DNA of 64,000 bases from Candidatus Omnitrophota bacterium (GCA_043805415.1 JAZDHZ010000033.1:153600-217599); one strand, 5' to 3'. Shown: positions 37,983 to 42,682, counted from the stretch's first letter. Notes: generated from the sequence alone by a model not told the origin. Program-made: numbers and translations.

Positions 37983-38046
37983 TAATATCATTGCCCGCTA
38001 TACTCACGGCCCATCAATTGATGAGCCATTAATTCTGGAAAAATCC
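37981..38046 (+). pseudogene. 66-bp rhs remnant (NNIIARYTHGPSIDEPLILEKS)
   Basis: Nearly identical to 39349-39414 of the orphan cassette and to 36829-36894 of main rhs. Confidence 0.7.
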
Positions 38047-38117
38047 GCAAAGACAACAGCAAAGACAACAGGGTCACAGCAAAGACAACAGGAAAGACAA
38101 CAGAGGAAAGACAACAG
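38046..38117 (+). repeat. short tandem repeat array, unit (g)caaagacaacag x5, abutting left TIR of transposase element 1
   Basis: Read directly: gcaaagacaacagcaaagacaacagggtcacagcaaagacaacaggaaagacaacagaggaaagacaacag. Confidence 0.8.
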
Positions 38118-38143
38118 GGTCAGACCTCCACATTAGAAAGTAG

Positions 38144-38172
38144 TTGACATGAGTGGAAGATAATAGTAAAAT
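38144..38172 (+). promoter_or_regulatory. element-internal promoter TTGACA-17-TAAAAT, 6 nt before transposase ATG
   Basis: Hexamers read directly; same layout in element 2. Confidence 0.5.
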
Positions 38173-38178
38173 AAAAAT

Positions 38179-39129
38179 ATGGCCCGACCATATCGATTGC
38201 AGGGAGAAGGAATATTATATCATCTAACCAGCAGGGGAGATGATCGGAAGAAAATTTTCTTAAGCGAATTTGATTTTGAGAAATTCTTAGAGTATTTAAA
38301 AATAGCAAAAGAAAAGTTCAAATTTTATTTATACGCCTATTGCCTGATGGGCAACCATTATCATCTGCTAATAGAAACAACCCAGCCAAACCTATCCAGA
38401 ATAATGCAAAATATAAACAGCTCATATACACTCTACTATAATAAAAAAAGAAGTAAATGCGGGCATGTGTTTCAAGGTAGATACAAATCAATAATAGTCG
38501 AAGCTGATGAGTATTTCAAAGAACTGAGCCGATATATACATTTAAATCCGGTAAAGGCGCGGATAGTAAATAGCCCTGAGGAATATAAATGGTCAAGCTA
38601 CCGAACATATATTAATAAGTCTGATAATAATGAGATAATTGATATTGCCGAGGCAAAAAGACTTTTAGGCATGGAAATGAGAGAATATATAAGTTTTGTA
38701 AAAGCCGGTATGCTGGAAAAAGAGAATTTAATGGAAAAAGTATATGCGGGATTTCTGCTTGGAGGCAAGGAATTTATCAAAGAGCAGCTGGAGGAAATAG
38801 CAAATCAAACAAGTGAAAAAGATTTTGCGTATAAGCGGGAAGTTTTTTCGCAAACAGATCCGAGGGATATAATAAACATAGTTGCCAAACATTTTAAGCA
38901 AACGCCGGAAGAAGTAAAGACAAGTAATAAACGTCCGATGACAGCGAAAAAGATGGCAATATATTTAATACGGAAGAAAACTAATCTGACGAATAATCAG
39001 ATTGGGGAAATGTTTAATATGAAATTTTCAGCAATAAGCAAAGCTGTGCTAGCTTTTACCAGTCAAATGGATAAAGATAAGAGGCTAAGGGAATTAGTGA
39101 AAATGATAACTTCTAAAGTGGAGGTCTGA
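38179..39129 (+). CDS. IS200/IS605-family Y1 (HUH) transposase fused to a C-terminal DnaA domain-IV-like HTH
   Basis: MARPYRLQGEG..YHLTSRG...YCLMGNHYHLLIET (HuH), catalytic Tyr region; C-terminal MTAKKMAIYLIRKKTNLTNNQIGEMF resembles DnaA C-terminal HTH. Confidence 0.75.
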   Translation: MARPYRLQGEGILYHLTSRGDDRKKIFLSEFDFEKFLEYLKIAKEKFKFYLYAYCLMGNHYHLLIETTQPNLSRIMQNINSSYTLYYNKKRSKCGHVFQGRYKSIIVEADEYFKELSRYIHLNPVKARIVNSPEEYKWSSYRTYINKSDNNEIIDIAEAKRLLGMEMREYISFVKAGMLEKENLMEKVYAGFLLGGKEFIKEQLEEIANQTSEKDFAYKREVFSQTDPRDIINIVAKHFKQTPEEVKTSNKRPMTAKKMAIYLIRKKTNLTNNQIGEMFNMKFSAISKAVLAFTSQMDKDKRLRELVKMITSKVEV

Positions 39130-39130
39130 C

Positions 39131-39191
39131 CCCGTTGGTGTGTAGACCCCGTTGGTGTGTACCGTTGGTGTGTAGACCCCGTTGGTGTGTA
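39131..39191 (+). repeat. short tandem repeat array, unit ccccgttggtgtgta(ga) x4, abutting right TIR of element 1
   Basis: Read directly. Confidence 0.8.
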
Positions 39192-40113
39192 CACCTATGA
39201 CAGTGAAGACCAGTTGATAAATATCAGCAGTCCGGGAACGAGTGTGAGCTATCGTTACGATGCTTTAGGCCGCAGAATTGAGAAGGATGTTGATGGACAG
39301 ATAACAAAGTATGTCTATGACGGAGAAGATATTATTGCCGAATATGACGCTAATAACAATATCATTGCCCGCTATACCCACGGCCCATCAATTGATGAGC
39401 CATTAATTCTTGAAAAATCCGGACAGACGTACTATTATCAGACTGATGGTTTAGGTTCAGTCACCAATATTACAGATGCCAATAACCAGACCGTTAAGAC
39501 GTATCAGTACGACAGCTTCGGTAATATAATATCAACAACCGGGTCTTTGACTCAGCCGTTTACATACACCGGTAGAGAATACGACAGCGAGAGCGGATTG
39601 TATTATTATCGCGCCAGGTATTATGATCCAGCAATCGGAAGGTTCCTGCAGGAAGATCCGGTTTGGGATACGAATCTTTATTTGTATGTTGATAATAATG
39701 CGGTTAACTATATAGATCCAGAGGGGTTGTTGAAAATGGTTTTTAATGGAGGTGGGCACATTCCTGTCTCAGCTGGTACAGCGTTGGGGATGACTGTTCA
39801 ATCAGAATGGGATAAAACAGGCTTGCATGCTGCCGGGACTTCAATCGATATGGTAATGGGTGATATAGTAGATGTAGGTTTTTCTTTAGGAATTGGGGAT
39901 ATTAGCAATACGTGTGGGGAAAAGGCTGGAGGAACTCTCAGTCTCAATCATCCTTTGTTAGGAAAATATGGAGGGATTCAACTTACTTTTAGAAATGATT
40001 TTAACTGGAGCGATCCTGGTACTTGGATTCCAGATGGTTTACAGGTAGGCATTGGGCTTGGAATTTCGTTGCCAAGTACTTATACTGAGCAGATTGGTTT
40101 TAGAGATTGGTAG
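39157..40113 (+). CDS. orphan rhs C-terminal cassette (no N-terminal body or credible start); alternative Gly-rich toxin tip after the DPxGL junction
   Basis: 39193-39729 is ~90% identical to 36676-37212 of main rhs; ends ...NAVNYIDPEGL then diverges entirely. Confidence 0.7.
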   Translation: MYRWCVDPVGVYTYDSEDQLINISSPGTSVSYRYDALGRRIEKDVDGQITKYVYDGEDIIAEYDANNNIIARYTHGPSIDEPLILEKSGQTYYYQTDGLGSVTNITDANNQTVKTYQYDSFGNIISTTGSLTQPFTYTGREYDSESGLYYYRARYYDPAIGRFLQEDPVWDTNLYLYVDNNAVNYIDPEGLLKMVFNGGGHIPVSAGTALGMTVQSEWDKTGLHAAGTSIDMVMGDIVDVGFSLGIGDISNTCGEKAGGTLSLNHPLLGKYGGIQLTFRNDFNWSDPGTWIPDGLQVGIGLGISLPSTYTEQIGFRDW

Positions 40114-41556: not shown

Positions 41557-41581
41557 GGGGAAATCTACGGGACATATAAAA

Positions 41582-41634
41582 GGGTGATAGGGTCAAAAAG
41601 GGTGATAGAAAAAAAGGTGATAGGAAGGTGATAG
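41582..41634 (+). repeat. short tandem repeat array, unit (g)ggtgatag x4, abutting left TIR of transposase element 2
   Basis: Read directly. Confidence 0.8.
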
Positions 41635-41660
41635 GGTCAGACCCGGAAAACGGAAAAGAT

Positions 41661-41689
41661 TGACGAGTTAAGGTTTTTTTAGTATAATT
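41661..41689 (+). promoter_or_regulatory. element-internal promoter TTGACG-17-TATAAT, 5 nt before transposase ATG (near-leaderless)
   Basis: Hexamers read directly. Confidence 0.5.
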
Positions 41690-41694
41690 TAACA

Positions 41695-42642
41695 ATGGCG
41701 CGACCATATAGATTGCAAGGAGAAAATTGTTTTTATCATATCACCAGCAGGGGAGATGATCGCAAGAGAATCTTCATAAGCGATTATGATTTTGAGAAAT
41801 TTTTAGAGTATTTAGAAAAAGCTAAAGAAAAATATAAGTTTAAATTATATGCATACTGCTTGATGTCAAACCACTATCATTTATTTATCGAAACCCTACA
41901 GCCGAATCTATCTAAAATCATGCAATATCTCAATACTGCCTATACAGTATACTATAATAAAAAACGCAAGAAGACAGGGCATTTGTTCCAAGGTAGGTAT
42001 AAATCGATAATGGTGGATGAAGATAGTTATTTTTTAGAACTAACCCGTTATATCCACCTAAATCCCGTACGGGCAAAAATGGTAGAAAGGCCGGGAGAAT
42101 ATAAGTGGTCAAGCTATAAGGGCTATTTAAAAAATAAAACAGATAAATATATAGATTATGACGCGCTGAACGATTATTTGGGAATGGATAGTGCAAGTTA
42201 TAAAGAATTTGTATCAAACTCAATAAATAGGGAAGATAGTTTATTTAAAGAAGTTTATGCGGGATTTTTCCTAGGAGGGAAGGCGTTTATAGAGGAAAAA
42301 CTAGCGGAATTTAGGCCTGAGATAGAGGAAGGGGATTTTGCTCATAAGCGCAAACTTAGATCTGAAATATCAATAGAAGAAATAATCAAAGCAGTAGGTG
42401 CTGTTTTTAAGGAAAATAATAACGAGGTATTAGGAAAAAAGAATAGCCAATCAAATTTAAGGAAAATAGCAATATATTTAGCCCGCAGAATAACGCAATT
42501 AAGTAATAAAGAAATAGGAGCACATTTTAATATTAGCGATTCAGCAGTAGGAAAGGCAGTCCATAGGGTATCAGAGTTATTGCAAGAGGATCAAGGGTTG
42601 AAAAAGAGAACAAATGAACTGTTTTCCGTTTTCCGGGTCTGA
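41695..42642 (+). CDS. IS200/IS605-family Y1 (HUH) transposase fused to a DnaA domain-IV-like HTH (diverged paralogue of 38179-39129)
   Basis: MARPYRLQGEN..YHITSRG...YCLMSNHYHLFIET; C-terminal LRKIAIYLARRITQLSNKEIGAHFNISDSAV; TGA stop inside right TIR. Confidence 0.75.
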   Translation: MARPYRLQGENCFYHITSRGDDRKRIFISDYDFEKFLEYLEKAKEKYKFKLYAYCLMSNHYHLFIETLQPNLSKIMQYLNTAYTVYYNKKRKKTGHLFQGRYKSIMVDEDSYFLELTRYIHLNPVRAKMVERPGEYKWSSYKGYLKNKTDKYIDYDALNDYLGMDSASYKEFVSNSINREDSLFKEVYAGFFLGGKAFIEEKLAEFRPEIEEGDFAHKRKLRSEISIEEIIKAVGAVFKENNNEVLGKKNSQSNLRKIAIYLARRITQLSNKEIGAHFNISDSAVGKAVHRVSELLQEDQGLKKRTNELFSVFRV

Positions 42643-42645
42643 CCC

Positions 42646-42682
42646 TTTTAGAAAATACGGGTCTGACCCTTTTAGAAAATAT
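42646..42682 (+). repeat. subterminal direct repeat (gggtctgacccttttagaaaata x2) outside right TIR of element 2
   Basis: Read directly; the second unit runs straight into the addB 3'-end repeat copy 2. Confidence 0.75.

What the first reader, a model, noticed from the sequence alone, without database searches (positions are those of the whole stretch)
38046..42682. Two diverged Y1-HUH transposase plus DnaA-C HTH elements with true terminal inverted repeats, STR arrays and conserved internal promoters, sitting at rhs cassette breakpoints
Both transposases (38179-39129 and 41695-42642) have an IS200-like HuH/Tyr core fused to a DnaA domain-IV-like HTH. Unusually for IS200/IS605-type enzymes, each is flanked by perfect inverted repeats: 15 bp GGGTCAGACCTCCAC for copy 1 and ~25 bp GGGTCAGACCCGGAAAACGGAAAAG for copy 2. 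The two share a near-palindromic GGGTCAGACC core. Arrays of 8-13-bp tandem repeats sit immediately outside the TIRs: aaagacaacag x5, ccccgttggtgtgta x4, ggtgatag x4, and gggtctgacccttttagaaaata x2. Each transposase stop codon lies inside the right TIR. Each element carries a TTGACA/G-17-TAAAAT/TATAAT promoter 5-6 nt before the ATG. A solo right end with ccccgtaggtctg x2 repeats lies at 40528-40604. Element 1 sits exactly between the rhs remnant and the orphan cassette breakpoint. These look like REP/RAYT-like or otherwise uncharacterised HUH elements that may drive rhs cassette shuffling.
Basis: seen in the sequence. Interest (0 to 1): 0.72.

Follow-up and report, generated by a model that had tools for sequence, protein, structure and literature searches.

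The report
TIRYT tyrosine-transposase elements in an Rhs locus
The two genes are members of an already described but never experimentally studied class of small mobile elements (a REP-type tyrosine nuclease fused to a DnaA-like DNA-binding domain, bounded by inverted repeats). Their odd flanking mini-repeats and their position beside Rhs toxin genes turn out to recur across the whole family.

Summary
That covers two 54%-identical Y1-HUH + DnaA-C genes, a perfect 15-nt and a perfect 25-nt terminal inverted repeat (TIR), stop codons inside the right TIRs, promoters 6 nt before the ATG, short tandem arrays abutting all the ends, a solo right end, and Rhs fragments on both sides of element 1.

The elements are not a new kind. 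They are "TIRYT/TIRtron" elements (Di Nocera 2013), equal to TnpAREP subclass 2.1.2 (Quentin 2018). In 163 relatives from many phyla, most carry the same TIR tip, (G)GGGTCAGRYC, usually with the stop codon inside the right TIR.

The ends do not fold into hairpins, and the near-palindrome is not conserved in the family.

Three points go beyond the two papers:
- Tandem "stutter" duplications of flank plus partial TIR tip are enriched at element ends in two independent locus sets (p about 1e-12 and 3e-5). Close relatives with identical TIRs lack them, so they look like by-products of end processing.
- Ten of 161 unrelated loci also have an Rhs gene or fragment nearby, several cut exactly at a TIR.
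- The 12.1-kb Rhs/TIRYT block is bracketed by 102-nt direct repeats.

That the elements drive Rhs cassette shuffling remains unproven.

The parts
30488..30589 (+). Left copy of a 102-nt direct repeat: the last 27 codons of the AddB-like PD-(D/E)XK gene (27734-30568) plus 21 nt downstream.
   Evidence: blastn: 98% identical to 42680-42781. Pfam PDDEXK_1 match for the gene.
30639..30662 (.). Palindrome GGGACAGGTC-GT-GACCTGTCC: two TIRYT-type tips head to head, about 50 nt inside the left edge of the 12.1-kb block.
   Evidence: It is the only GGGWSAGRYC match in the window outside the elements. It folds at -9.5 kcal/mol, z -4.45. Its role is unknown.
30985..37587 (+). Main Rhs/YD-repeat toxin gene (2200 aa).
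   Evidence: ORF list. The orphan cassette and the remnant are homologous to its 3' part.
37602..37982 (+). Small ORF after the main rhs gene (126 aa), presumed immunity gene.
   Evidence: Assigned by position only; no Pfam match.
37978..38054 (+). 77-nt Rhs core remnant, cut at the left array of element 1.
   Evidence: 94% identical to 39352-39428 (D3). 89% identical to main rhs 36835-36900.
38047..38116 (.). Left flank array of element 1: AAAGACAACAG x5, two units followed by a partial TIR tip (GGTCA).
   Evidence: TRF and the repeat finder. Absent from relatives L001 and L003, whose TIR core is the same.
38112..38138 (+). Left TIR of element 1 (perfect core 38117-38131, GGGTCAGACCTCCAC).
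   Evidence: pair I2. Homology with L001 and L003 starts here.
38144..38172 (+). Promoter-like site TTGACA-17-TAAAAT, ending 6 nt before the ATG (implies a leaderless mRNA).
   Evidence: 11/12 match. The same geometry is found in 27 of 71 family loci.
38179..39129 (+). TIRYT1 gene: Y1-HUH domain (aa 12-121; HUH at H60-Y61-H62; Y119 in RYIHLNP) plus a DnaA-C HTH (aa 229-290).
   Evidence: Pfam and NCBIfam. Invariant residues. Best fold matches are 4ER8 and the DnaA DNA-binding domain 3PVP.
39111..39137 (-). Right TIR of element 1 (core 39118-39132); it contains the last codons and the TGA stop.
   Evidence: pair I2. Homology with the relatives ends at GGTCTGACCC.
39128..39195 (.). Right flank array of element 1: (GACC)CCGTTGGTGTGTA x4. 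It abuts the start of the orphan's Rhs homology at 39190.
   Evidence: TRF.
39157..40113 (+). Orphan rhs C-terminal cassette (Rhs homology from 39190).
   Evidence: Pfam RHS_repeat. 85% identical to main rhs 36673-37208.
40139..40345 (+). 68-aa membrane-like ORF after the orphan, presumed immunity gene.
   Evidence: Assigned by position only; no Pfam match.
40516..40604 (-). Remnant of a third copy: the last ~50 nt of a TIRYT1-like gene, the right TIR (40558-40582), and a GACCCCGTAGGTCTG x2.5 array (40569-40604).
   Evidence: 91% identical to 39069-39142 (D5 and I3). TRF. Alignment.
40708..41556 (+). ORF of 282 aa, function unknown, lying between the solo end and element 2.
   Evidence: No Pfam match.
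41578..41635 (.). Left flank array of element 2: (AAAAG)GGTGATAG x4, two units followed by GGTCA.
   Evidence: (D18).
41633..41657 (+). Left TIR of element 2: AGGGTCAGACCCGGAAAACGGAAAA, containing an internal 7-nt direct repeat.
   Evidence: pair I1. The 24-nt TIR of L089 is identical although its protein is only 73% identical.
41660..41688 (+). Promoter-like site TTGACG-17-TATAAT, ending 6 nt before the ATG.
41695..42642 (+). TIRYT2 gene (315 aa).
42622..42646 (-). Right TIR of element 2; it contains the stop codon.
   Evidence: pair I1.
42634..42681 (.). Right array of element 2: a 24-nt unit (12 nt of TIR plus 12 nt of flank) x2, 100% identical.
42680..42781 (+). Right copy of the 102-nt direct repeat (a displaced copy of the addB-like 3' end), starting where the right array of element 2 ends.

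Best explanation
The region holds two diverged copies, plus one 3' remnant, of TIRYT-type elements ("TIRtrons"). Each is a ~1.03-kb unit encoding a single RAYT-like Y1-HUH nuclease fused to a DnaA-domain-IV-type HTH, bounded by 15-27-nt terminal inverted repeats. They sit in the orphan-cassette tail of an Rhs toxin locus in a Candidatus Omnitrophota genome.

Shown:
- The domain identities and the conserved HUH motif and tyrosine.
- The TIR has a family-wide tip, (G)GGGTCAGRYCT, followed by an element-specific part.
- The right TIR encodes the last codons and the TGA stop.
- A promoter lies between the left TIR and the ATG, with a leaderless geometry.
- Sequence homology between relatives sitting in unrelated genomic contexts starts and stops exactly at the TIR tips. 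So the TIR-bounded unit is what moves, or once moved.
- The ends do not form hairpins.
- Tandem "stutter" duplications of flank plus partial tip are enriched at element ends family-wide, but are absent from close relatives with identical TIRs.

Inferred:
- The HTH domain binds the element-specific subterminal part of each TIR. This part often consists of two 7-8-nt direct repeats and often overlaps the -35 box, so binding would also auto-repress the gene.
- The HUH/Tyr site nicks within or next to the conserved tip.
- The flank arrays are by-products of repeated end nicking followed by short repair or strand-displacement synthesis and rejoining, or of slippage at protein-bound ends. They are not functional sites.
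- The elements accumulate beside Rhs and toxin-antitoxin cassettes either because those regions tolerate insertions and are exchanged horizontally, or because of an unrecognised target preference.
For: Protein identity:
- Pfam and NCBIfam matches; REP_Tyr_transpos scores 83-84 bits against a cut-off of 80.
- H60, H62 and Y119 are invariant in the alignment.
- The best PDB fold match is RAYT 4ER8. The C-terminal domain superposes on the DnaA DNA-binding domain at 1.2-1.3 A. A sequence profile also finds DnaA domain IV.

Published class:
- The class and its TIR motif are described.

Family-wide TIRs:
- About 65 of 83 genome loci and 47 of 68 complete metagenome loci carry a TIR of the same type.
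- Tip consensus.

Mobile unit bounded by the TIRs:
- Alignments of the ends of window element 1, L001 and L003, and of window element 2 and L089, show homology ending at the tips while the flanks are unrelated.
- The 24-nt TIR of L089 matches window element 2's at every position, although the proteins are 73% identical.
- A truncated third copy is present.
- 22 of 69 elements have extra solo TIRs nearby.

Promoter:
-.

No hairpins:
-.

Arrays:
- Genome set: 45 of 132 ends against 98 of 1035 control windows, p 1.3e-12.
- The inner boundary of the arrays lies within -10..+2 of the tip in 23 of 34 cases, p 2e-11.
- Replicated in the metagenome set: 12 of 75 against 12 of 428, p 3e-5.
- Arrays also occur in isolate genomes and in assemblies labelled as whole chromosomes: L037, L064, L067.
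Against: - No transposition, DNA binding or cleavage by any TIRYT has been shown. I found only in-silico papers.
- No target-site duplication or empty site was found for the window copies.
- Array inner boundaries are spread over about 12 nt rather than falling at one position, which argues against a single fixed nick site.
- Most genomes seem to carry few copies, and the genes are co-oriented with their neighbours (67 of 91). This is also compatible with partial domestication.
- The window comes from a metagenome-assembled genome, so joins at repeated sequences could be assembly errors.
- The AF2 model is poor in the middle region.
Confidence: 0.75

Rival explanations
1. Domesticated RAYT-like host genes. 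The inverted repeats would be operator or regulatory sites, and possibly seeds of REP-like repeat families, rather than transposon ends. The units would no longer move themselves.
For: - The proteins score just above the RAYT equivalog cut-off.
- The left TIR overlaps or adjoins the promoter.
- The genes are co-oriented with their neighbours.
- Solo TIR copies and clusters exist without a gene, as REPs do.
Against: - Homology between close relatives ends exactly at the TIR tips while the flanks are unrelated.
- Two diverged copies plus a truncated copy lie within 4.6 kb.
- The ends cut Rhs coding sequence and an AddB-like coding sequence.
Confidence: 0.1
2. A cassette-mobilising system. TIRYT together with solo TIRs would capture or exchange toxin-immunity cassettes (Rhs C-terminal cassette plus immunity gene, or toxin-antitoxin pairs) by using alternative ends. 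This would resemble one-ended or read-through transposition of IS91/ISCR/Helitrons, or attC-bounded integron cassettes. It is the reader's "drives rhs shuffling" idea.
For: - Window layout: Rhs remnant | element 1 | orphan + immunity | solo right end | ORF282 | element 2.
- L038: an Rhs fragment cut by a solo TIR, followed by small ORFs separated by further TIRs.
- L130: TIR - ORF191 - TIR.
- Rhs lies within a few kb in 10 of 161 loci from several phyla, and abuts a TIR directly in L003, L089, L126 and L038.
- Toxin-antitoxin pairs lie directly downstream in L001, L084, L086 and L005.
Against: - No pair of loci shows the same cassette moved together with TIRs.
- The solo end in the window carries 50 nt of gene, so it is a deletion remnant rather than a minimal end.
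- Mobile elements in general accumulate in such variable regions.
- The background Rhs density is only my own rough estimate.
- Co-orientation with Rhs (10 of 10) is only marginally above the family-wide 74%.
Confidence: 0.1
3. IS200/IS605-type "peel and paste" elements that rely on subterminal DNA hairpins. The flank arrays would be hairpin-forming or iteron-like binding sites belonging to the element.
For: - The catalytic fold is shared with IS608 and ISDra2 TnpA.
- The GGGTCAGACCC core is nearly palindromic.
Against: - The ends fold no better than shuffled sequence.
- The palindrome is present in only 16 of 136 family ends.
- The NCBIfam IS200 score is 21 bits against a cut-off of 55.
- Array sequences differ between the two ends, between the two elements, and are absent from relatives with the same TIR core or an identical TIR.
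Confidence: 0.03

Closest known systems
TIRYT / TIRtron (Di Nocera, De Gregorio & Rocco 2013, PMC3733652), equal to TnpAREP subclass 2.1, subgroup 2.1.2 (Quentin et al. 2018, PMC6006769)
   Same: - RAYT-like Y1-HUH protein of about 280-330 aa with a C-terminal Bac_DnaA_C-type HTH.
- Flanked by TIRs whose tip fits GGGGWSAS, some of them overlapping the gene ends.
- No REPs nearby.
- Solo, dimeric or clustered TIR copies occur.
   Different: - The window tips have one G fewer on three of the four ends (AGGGTCAG).
- The window tips carry the minority palindromic variant GGTCAGACC.
- The host phylum is Omnitrophota.
- The flank stutter arrays, the leaderless promoter geometry and the Rhs association are not described in the passages of those two papers that I retrieved.
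RAYT / TnpAREP with REP/BIME/REPIN sequences (E. coli YafM, PDB 4ER8)
   Same: - HUH plus single-tyrosine catalytic core.
- Best structural match.
- NCBIfam REP_Tyr_transpos scores just above its cut-off.
- Short repeats linked to the gene can spread as solo copies.
   Different: - No REP hairpins flank the genes.
- The protein is about twice as long, with an added HTH domain.
- Linear TIRs replace palindromes.
- Several diverged copies and a truncated copy lie in one locus.
IS200/IS605 TnpA elements (IS608, ISDra2)
   Same: - Y1-HUH fold.
- No target-site duplication seen.
- An orientation bias relative to neighbouring genes is reminiscent of strand-specific insertion.
   Different: - No subterminal hairpins.
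- True TIRs.
- No tnpB gene.
- The IS200 model scores below its cut-off.
DnaA domain IV (PDB 1J1V, 3PVP)
   Same: Same fold: TM-score 0.87-0.90 normalised to the target, rmsd 1.2-1.3 A. Pfam Bac_DnaA_C scores above its gathering threshold.
   Different: - There is no AAA+ module.
- The DnaA segment R-D-H-T-T-V aligns with M-K-F-S-A-I-S. From memory (Fujikawa et al. 2003), that DnaA segment makes base contacts.
- The TIRs are not DnaA boxes, although element 1 contains TCCACA.
IS91/ISCR/Helitron-type HUH elements, and H-rpt (ISAs1-family) elements next to E. coli rhs genes (both recalled from my own knowledge)
   Same: - A possible analogy for cargo lying between one proper end and an alternative end.
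- A precedent for transposable elements residing in rhs loci.
   Different: - Different enzyme classes (Y2-HUH or DDE).
- No evidence here for rolling-circle transposition.

Membership tests
TIRYT / TIRtron (TnpAREP subclass 2.1.2) | Y1-HUH core with an HUH motif and a single catalytic tyrosine, RAYT-like rather than IS200-like. | tested here: met
   - Pfam Y1_Tnp match.
- NCBIfam REP_Tyr_transpos 83-84 bits (cut-off 80) against transpos_IS200 21 bits (cut-off 55).
- H60, H62 and Y119 invariant.
- 4ER8 is the top fold match.
TIRYT / TIRtron (TnpAREP subclass 2.1.2) | C-terminal HTH extension of the Bac_DnaA_C, HTH_23 or HTH_28 type. | tested here: met
   Bac_DnaA_C scores 42.4 and 39.9 bits (cut-off 31.5). 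PDB profile and fold matches to the DnaA DNA-binding domain.
TIRYT / TIRtron (TnpAREP subclass 2.1.2) | The gene is flanked by terminal inverted repeats that share the motif GGGGWSAS. | tested here: met
   TIRs found. The tips read AGGGTCAG on three ends and GGGGTCAG on the right end of element 1. The family consensus is GGGGTCAGGTCT.
TIRYT / TIRtron (TnpAREP subclass 2.1.2) | No REP or REPIN palindromes next to the gene. | tested here: met
   No stable hairpins at or near the ends. The only strong palindrome lies 7.5 kb away, at 30639-30662.
RAYT / REPtron | The gene is flanked by REP hairpins that belong to a high-copy genomic family. | tested here: not met
   The ends are linear TIRs. Copy number across the rest of the genome could not be tested, because only 64 kb is available.
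IS200/IS605 | Subterminal imperfect palindromes at the left and right ends, no TIRs, and a TnpA of about 130-150 aa. | tested here: not met
   The proteins are 315-316 aa.
Active transposable element (any family) | Demonstrated movement: an empty site, a new insertion, or an excised intermediate. | not testable with these tools
   Only indirect evidence is available: identical TIR-bounded units in unrelated contexts, a truncated copy, and junctions that cut coding sequences. A search for an empty addB-yajC site found nothing.

The most novel reading that the evidence does not exclude
TIRYT enzymes and their TIRs form a cassette-handling system for polymorphic-toxin and toxin-antitoxin modules. 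By nicking at the conserved tip and using alternative (solo) ends, they would move or exchange Rhs C-terminal cassette/immunity modules, and even larger blocks such as the 12.1-kb direct-repeat-bracketed Rhs island. The family-wide flank stutters would then be natural footprints of nick-primed synthesis that mark the cleavage position.
Probability: 0.12. Interest if true: 0.8.

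Novelty: new member of a known kind. Interest (0 to 1): 0.42.

Why it matters
TIRYTs are a very large family that nobody has studied experimentally. 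The first search here returned more than 7000 homologues with E-value at or below 1e-10, and nearly all of the 120 listed carry the same two-domain architecture. How RAYT-like enzymes move DNA in cells is still an open question.

The practical gains from this window are threefold:
- It supplies a clean anatomy for the family: a conserved tip, an element-specific subterminal part, a promoter next to or overlapping the left TIR, and a stop codon inside the right TIR.
- It shows that the short flank duplications are a reproducible family-wide signature. They may therefore serve as natural footprints for locating the cleavage site.
- It shows that these elements recur at Rhs toxin loci in several phyla. 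That turns "does a Y1 enzyme take part in toxin-cassette turnover?" into a testable comparative question.

If none of this holds up, the finding is simply two ordinary copies of a known element class sitting in a junk-tolerant region.

Tried and rejected
- **Hairpins at the ends.** DNA folds of all four ends give z-scores between -0.1 and +0.4, so the ends are not IS200/REP-like.
- **Target-site duplications.** The left and right flanks of each element are unrelated, so none were found.
- **Arrays as iterons or HTH binding sites.** Rejected. The unit sequences differ between ends and between elements, and they are missing from L001, L003 and L089, whose TIR core or whole TIR is identical.
- **A single fixed nick site at GGGGTC^A.** Several arrays fit this exactly (L046R, L037R, L021R, W1R, L101L, L147L). 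Overall, though, inner boundaries spread over -10..+2, and a second group lies at +6..+12. The idea is kept only as a hypothesis.
- **DnaA-box recognition.** The TIR of element 1 contains TCCACA, but element 2 and the family consensus do not. The DnaA segment that I recall making base contacts is also not conserved.
- **Empty-site search.** I searched metagenomes with the AddB-like C-terminus to look for an addB-yajC junction. No relatives were found.
- **Sequence search of the PDB with one protein.** It found only DnaA domain IV. The RAYT relationship needed the fold search.
- **AF2 model.** The alignment of 14 sequences gave mean pLDDT 61.6, with residues 104-224 unreliable. I used the model only for domain-level matches.
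- **Similar unit lengths at the two ends of one element.** This was suggestive in 6 of 9 cases by my own tally from the array lists. I dropped it, because most units are 7-13 nt anyway.
- **Literature.** I found no paper linking Rhs with RAYT/TIRYT or IS200-like enzymes.

Full report
- ORFs 38179-39129 and 41695-42642 both carry Pfam Y1_Tnp and Bac_DnaA_C above the gathering scores. They are 54% identical.
One is 25 nt at 100% (41633-41657 / 42622-42646). The other is 27 nt at 93% with a perfect 15-nt core (38117-38131 / 39118-39132).
- GGGTCAGACC occurs six times in 64 kb against 0.02 expected, always at an element end.
- All the tandem arrays are found by TRF.
- Both stop codons lie inside the right TIRs.
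- The two promoter-like sites are the best-scoring ones in the region, at 11/12, and each ends 6 nt before its ATG.
- The solo right end (40516-40604) is 91% identical to the 3' end of element 1 and includes about 50 nt of coding sequence. It is therefore the remnant of a third copy.
- Element 1 with its arrays lies exactly between a 77-nt Rhs remnant and the start of the orphan cassette's Rhs homology at 39190.

**2. What are the proteins?**
- NCBIfam places both just above the cut-off of the REP-associated tyrosine transposase equivalog (83-84 bits against 80) and far below the IS200 model.
- In an alignment with 12 homologues, the HUH histidines (H60, H62) and Y119 in RYIHLNP are invariant.
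- An AF2 model is only moderate (pLDDT 61.6; the middle is unreliable). Even so, its best PDB matches are the E. coli RAYT-REP complex 4ER8, followed by ISDra2 and IS608 TnpA. Its confident C-terminal domain superposes on the DnaA DNA-binding domain at 1.2-1.3 A. A sequence profile also finds DnaA domain IV.
- The DnaA segment RDHTTV aligns with MKFSAIS. From memory, that DnaA segment makes base contacts, so DnaA-box specificity is not expected here.
- The host is a Candidatus Omnitrophota metagenome-assembled genome. The identical protein, P0001, sits on a 234-kb contig.

**3. This is a known class.**
- Di Nocera et al. (PMC3733652) described RAYT-like genes flanked by TIRs instead of REPs. 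They named them TIRYT/TIRtrons, gave the shared TIR motif GGGGWSAS, noted TIRs overlapping the gene ends, and noted solo, dimeric and grouped TIR copies.
- Quentin et al. (PMC6006769) placed 20 of the 26 TIRYTs in TnpAREP subclass 2.1, whose subgroup 2.1.2 carries the Bac_DnaA_C domain. They found no REPs near these genes.
- The term TIRYT occurs in only three items of the searchable library, and later RAYT papers do not treat these elements experimentally.

**4. Family survey: TIRs and promoter.**
I fetched 80 loci from species-representative genomes of many phyla and 80 from metagenomes, plus close relatives.
- A scripted inverted-repeat search finds a TIR beginning (G)GGGTCA in about 65 of 83 genome loci and in 47 of 68 complete metagenome loci.
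- The tip consensus is GGGGTCAGGTCT, with G(-7..-4), T, C, A nearly invariant on both ends.
- The stop codon lies inside the right TIR in roughly 40 of 69 elements, by my count from the coordinates listed. This explains the conserved C-terminal "...V*".
- The palindromic variant seen in the window (GGTCAGACC) is a minority, 16 of 136 ends against 54 with GGTCAGGTC. The ends fold no better than shuffled sequence.
- Many TIRs contain two 7-8-nt direct repeats after the tip, as element 2 does with GGAAAAC GGAAAAG.
- A TTGnnn-16..18-TAnnnT promoter ending 4-9 nt before the start codon occurs in 27 of 71 loci. In compact elements the -35 box lies inside the left TIR. Shine-Dalgarno-like sequences are rare, 12 of 71.

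**5. Are the TIR-bounded units mobile?**
- Homology between window element 1 and its 84% and 89% relatives (L001, L003) begins at CAGGGTCAGACC and ends at GGTCTGACCC. The same holds for element 2 and L089. The flanks are unrelated in every case.
- L089's protein is only 73% identical to TIRYT2, yet its 24-nt TIR is identical. The TIR is thus under stronger constraint than the protein.
- Together with the truncated third copy, this supports a unit that moves or once moved. No empty site or intermediate was found.

**6. The flank arrays.**
- They are not peculiar to this window. In the genome set, exact tandem duplications (period 6-30) occur at 45 of 132 ends against 98 of 1035 control windows (p 1.3e-12).
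- In 23 of 34 outside arrays the inner boundary lies within -10..+2 nt of the tip (p 2e-11).
- The metagenome set replicates this: 12 of 75 against 12 of 428 (p 3e-5).
- The units are made of local flank sequence plus a variable part of the tip, often ending exactly at GGGGTC^A. Examples are L046R, L037R, L021R, W1R, L101L and L147L.
- A second group duplicates the flank plus 6-12 nt of the TIR: W2R, L064L, L044R, L095R and L147R.
- Arrays also occur in isolate genomes and in assemblies labelled as whole chromosomes, L037, L064 and L067. They are therefore not artefacts of short-read binning.
- They are absent from L001 and L003, which carry the same TIR core as element 1.
- I therefore read them as by-products of end processing rather than as functional sites. 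One route is nicking, short synthesis and rejoining. Another is repair of staggered nicks. A third is slippage at protein-bound ends. The exact route is not resolved.
- Di Nocera et al. noted that REP clusters can be reiterated in tandem with flanking DNA. In the passages I retrieved by term search, they do not describe such stutter at TIRYT ends.

**7. The Rhs association.**
- tblastn with the main Rhs core finds Rhs genes or fragments within a few kb in 5 of the 81 genome-derived loci analysed (80 scan loci plus the close relative L003). These are L003, L005 (Omnitrophota), L009 (Nitrospiraceae), L038 (Pyrinomonadaceae) and L043 (Fimbriimonadales). It finds them in 5 of 80 metagenome loci as well: L089, L126, L130, L145 and L166.
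- The usual layout is Rhs, then small ORF(s), then the left TIR and TIRYT, all on one strand.
- In L003 and L089 an Rhs fragment starts directly after the right TIR. In L038 and L126 an Rhs ORF runs into a TIR. L038 and L130 have small ORFs bracketed by further TIR copies.
- Ten Rhs-bearing loci in about 755 kb of flanking sequence is well above the roughly one per megabase that I would expect. That background figure is my own rough estimate, not a measured control.
- Other Omnitrophota relatives are followed directly by toxin-antitoxin pairs.
- TIRYT genes are generally co-oriented with their upstream neighbour, 67 of 91 (p 7e-6). The 10 of 10 co-orientation with Rhs is therefore not in itself remarkable.
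- The association is real. Whether it reflects tolerance of insertions in orphan-cassette tails, shared horizontal transfer, a target preference, or an active role in cassette turnover cannot be decided here.

**8. Wider context in the window.**
- The last 102 nt of the AddB-like gene region (30488-30589) are repeated at 98% identity at 42680-42781, starting where the right array of element 2 ends.
- The whole 12.1-kb block is therefore bracketed by direct repeats and looks like one inserted island between addB-like and yajC/secDF. The block holds the main rhs gene, the presumed immunity gene, element 1, the orphan cassette, the solo end, ORF282 and element 2.
- The right end of element 2 is joined inside what was AddB-like coding sequence.
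- About 50 nt inside the left edge there is a strong palindrome made of two TIRYT-type tips (30639-30662).
- I could not find a related genome with the empty site.

**9. Verdict.**
It is wrong on novelty and on hairpins and palindromes, and unproven on Rhs shuffling.
- The elements are new members of a known, purely in-silico class.
- The family-wide end stutter, the leaderless promoter geometry and the cross-phylum Rhs association are modest new observations worth a specialist's attention.

Noticed in passing
window 30488-30589 and 42680-42781: A 102-nt direct repeat (98% identical) of the 3' end of the AddB-like gene brackets the whole 12.1-kb Rhs/TIRYT block. The right copy starts exactly where the right array of element 2 ends. 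The block looks like one inserted island between addB-like and yajC/secDF.
   Followed up: partly
window 30639-30662: Palindrome GGGACAGGTC-GT-GACCTGTCC: two TIRYT-type tips head to head. It folds at -9.5 kcal/mol (z -4.45) and lies about 50 nt inside the left edge of the block. It could be a terminator, a solo TIR dimer, or a footprint.
   Followed up: partly
window 36340-36393 and 37211-37303: Two in-frame tandem duplications lie inside the main rhs gene: 21 nt x2.6 (LSLAYNP repeats) and 48 nt x1.9. All six tandem repeats in the window that score above 60 fall between 36.3 and 42.7 kb.
   Followed up: no
window 39127-39157: The TIRYT1 ORF and the orphan rhs ORF are in the same reading frame, separated only by the TGA stop inside the right TIR. 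The orphan's first possible start codon (GTG at 39157) lies inside the flank array.
   Followed up: no
L038 1699-4000 (Pyrinomonadaceae MAG): An Rhs fragment ORF is cut by a solo TIR at 2276. Further TIR copies at 2808, 3053(-) and 3278 separate small ORFs, and the TIRYT gene follows. The layout resembles a cassette array.
   Followed up: partly
L001 3412-3913; L084 9120-10578; L086 9029-9612; L005 5047-5728: In other Omnitrophota relatives the TIRYT gene is followed directly by a toxin-antitoxin pair on the same strand: DUF6290/ParE in L001, AbiEi/NTP_transf_8 in L084, and MazE/PemK in L086. In L005 it is two small ORFs that I took for an MNT/HEPN-like pair, but I did not check them against Pfam.
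   Followed up: no
L003 4600-5370: A second, shorter Y1_Tnp gene (225 aa, no DnaA-C match) with its own TIR, GGGACAGACAC / GGTGTCTGTCCC, lies downstream of the orphan rhs cassette.
   Followed up: no
L102 109-175 / 1157-1223 and L146 1504-1565 / 2547-2608: These TIRs are unusually long (about 62-67 nt) and are themselves internally palindromic: tip ... inverted tip. This matches the "double palindromic TIRs" mentioned by Di Nocera et al.
   Followed up: no
all family loci (L004-L167): TIRYT genes are co-oriented with the upstream neighbouring gene in 67 of 91 loci and with the downstream one in 63 of 100. This suggests strand- or replication-biased insertion, or selection on orientation.
   Followed up: partly
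L069 3629-3954 and 4958-5152; L037 1677-2505; L027 and L078 left ends: These loci hold clusters of 3-7 complete TIR copies spaced 40-110 nt apart, beside or near the gene. They are REP-like local amplification of TIRs.
   Followed up: no
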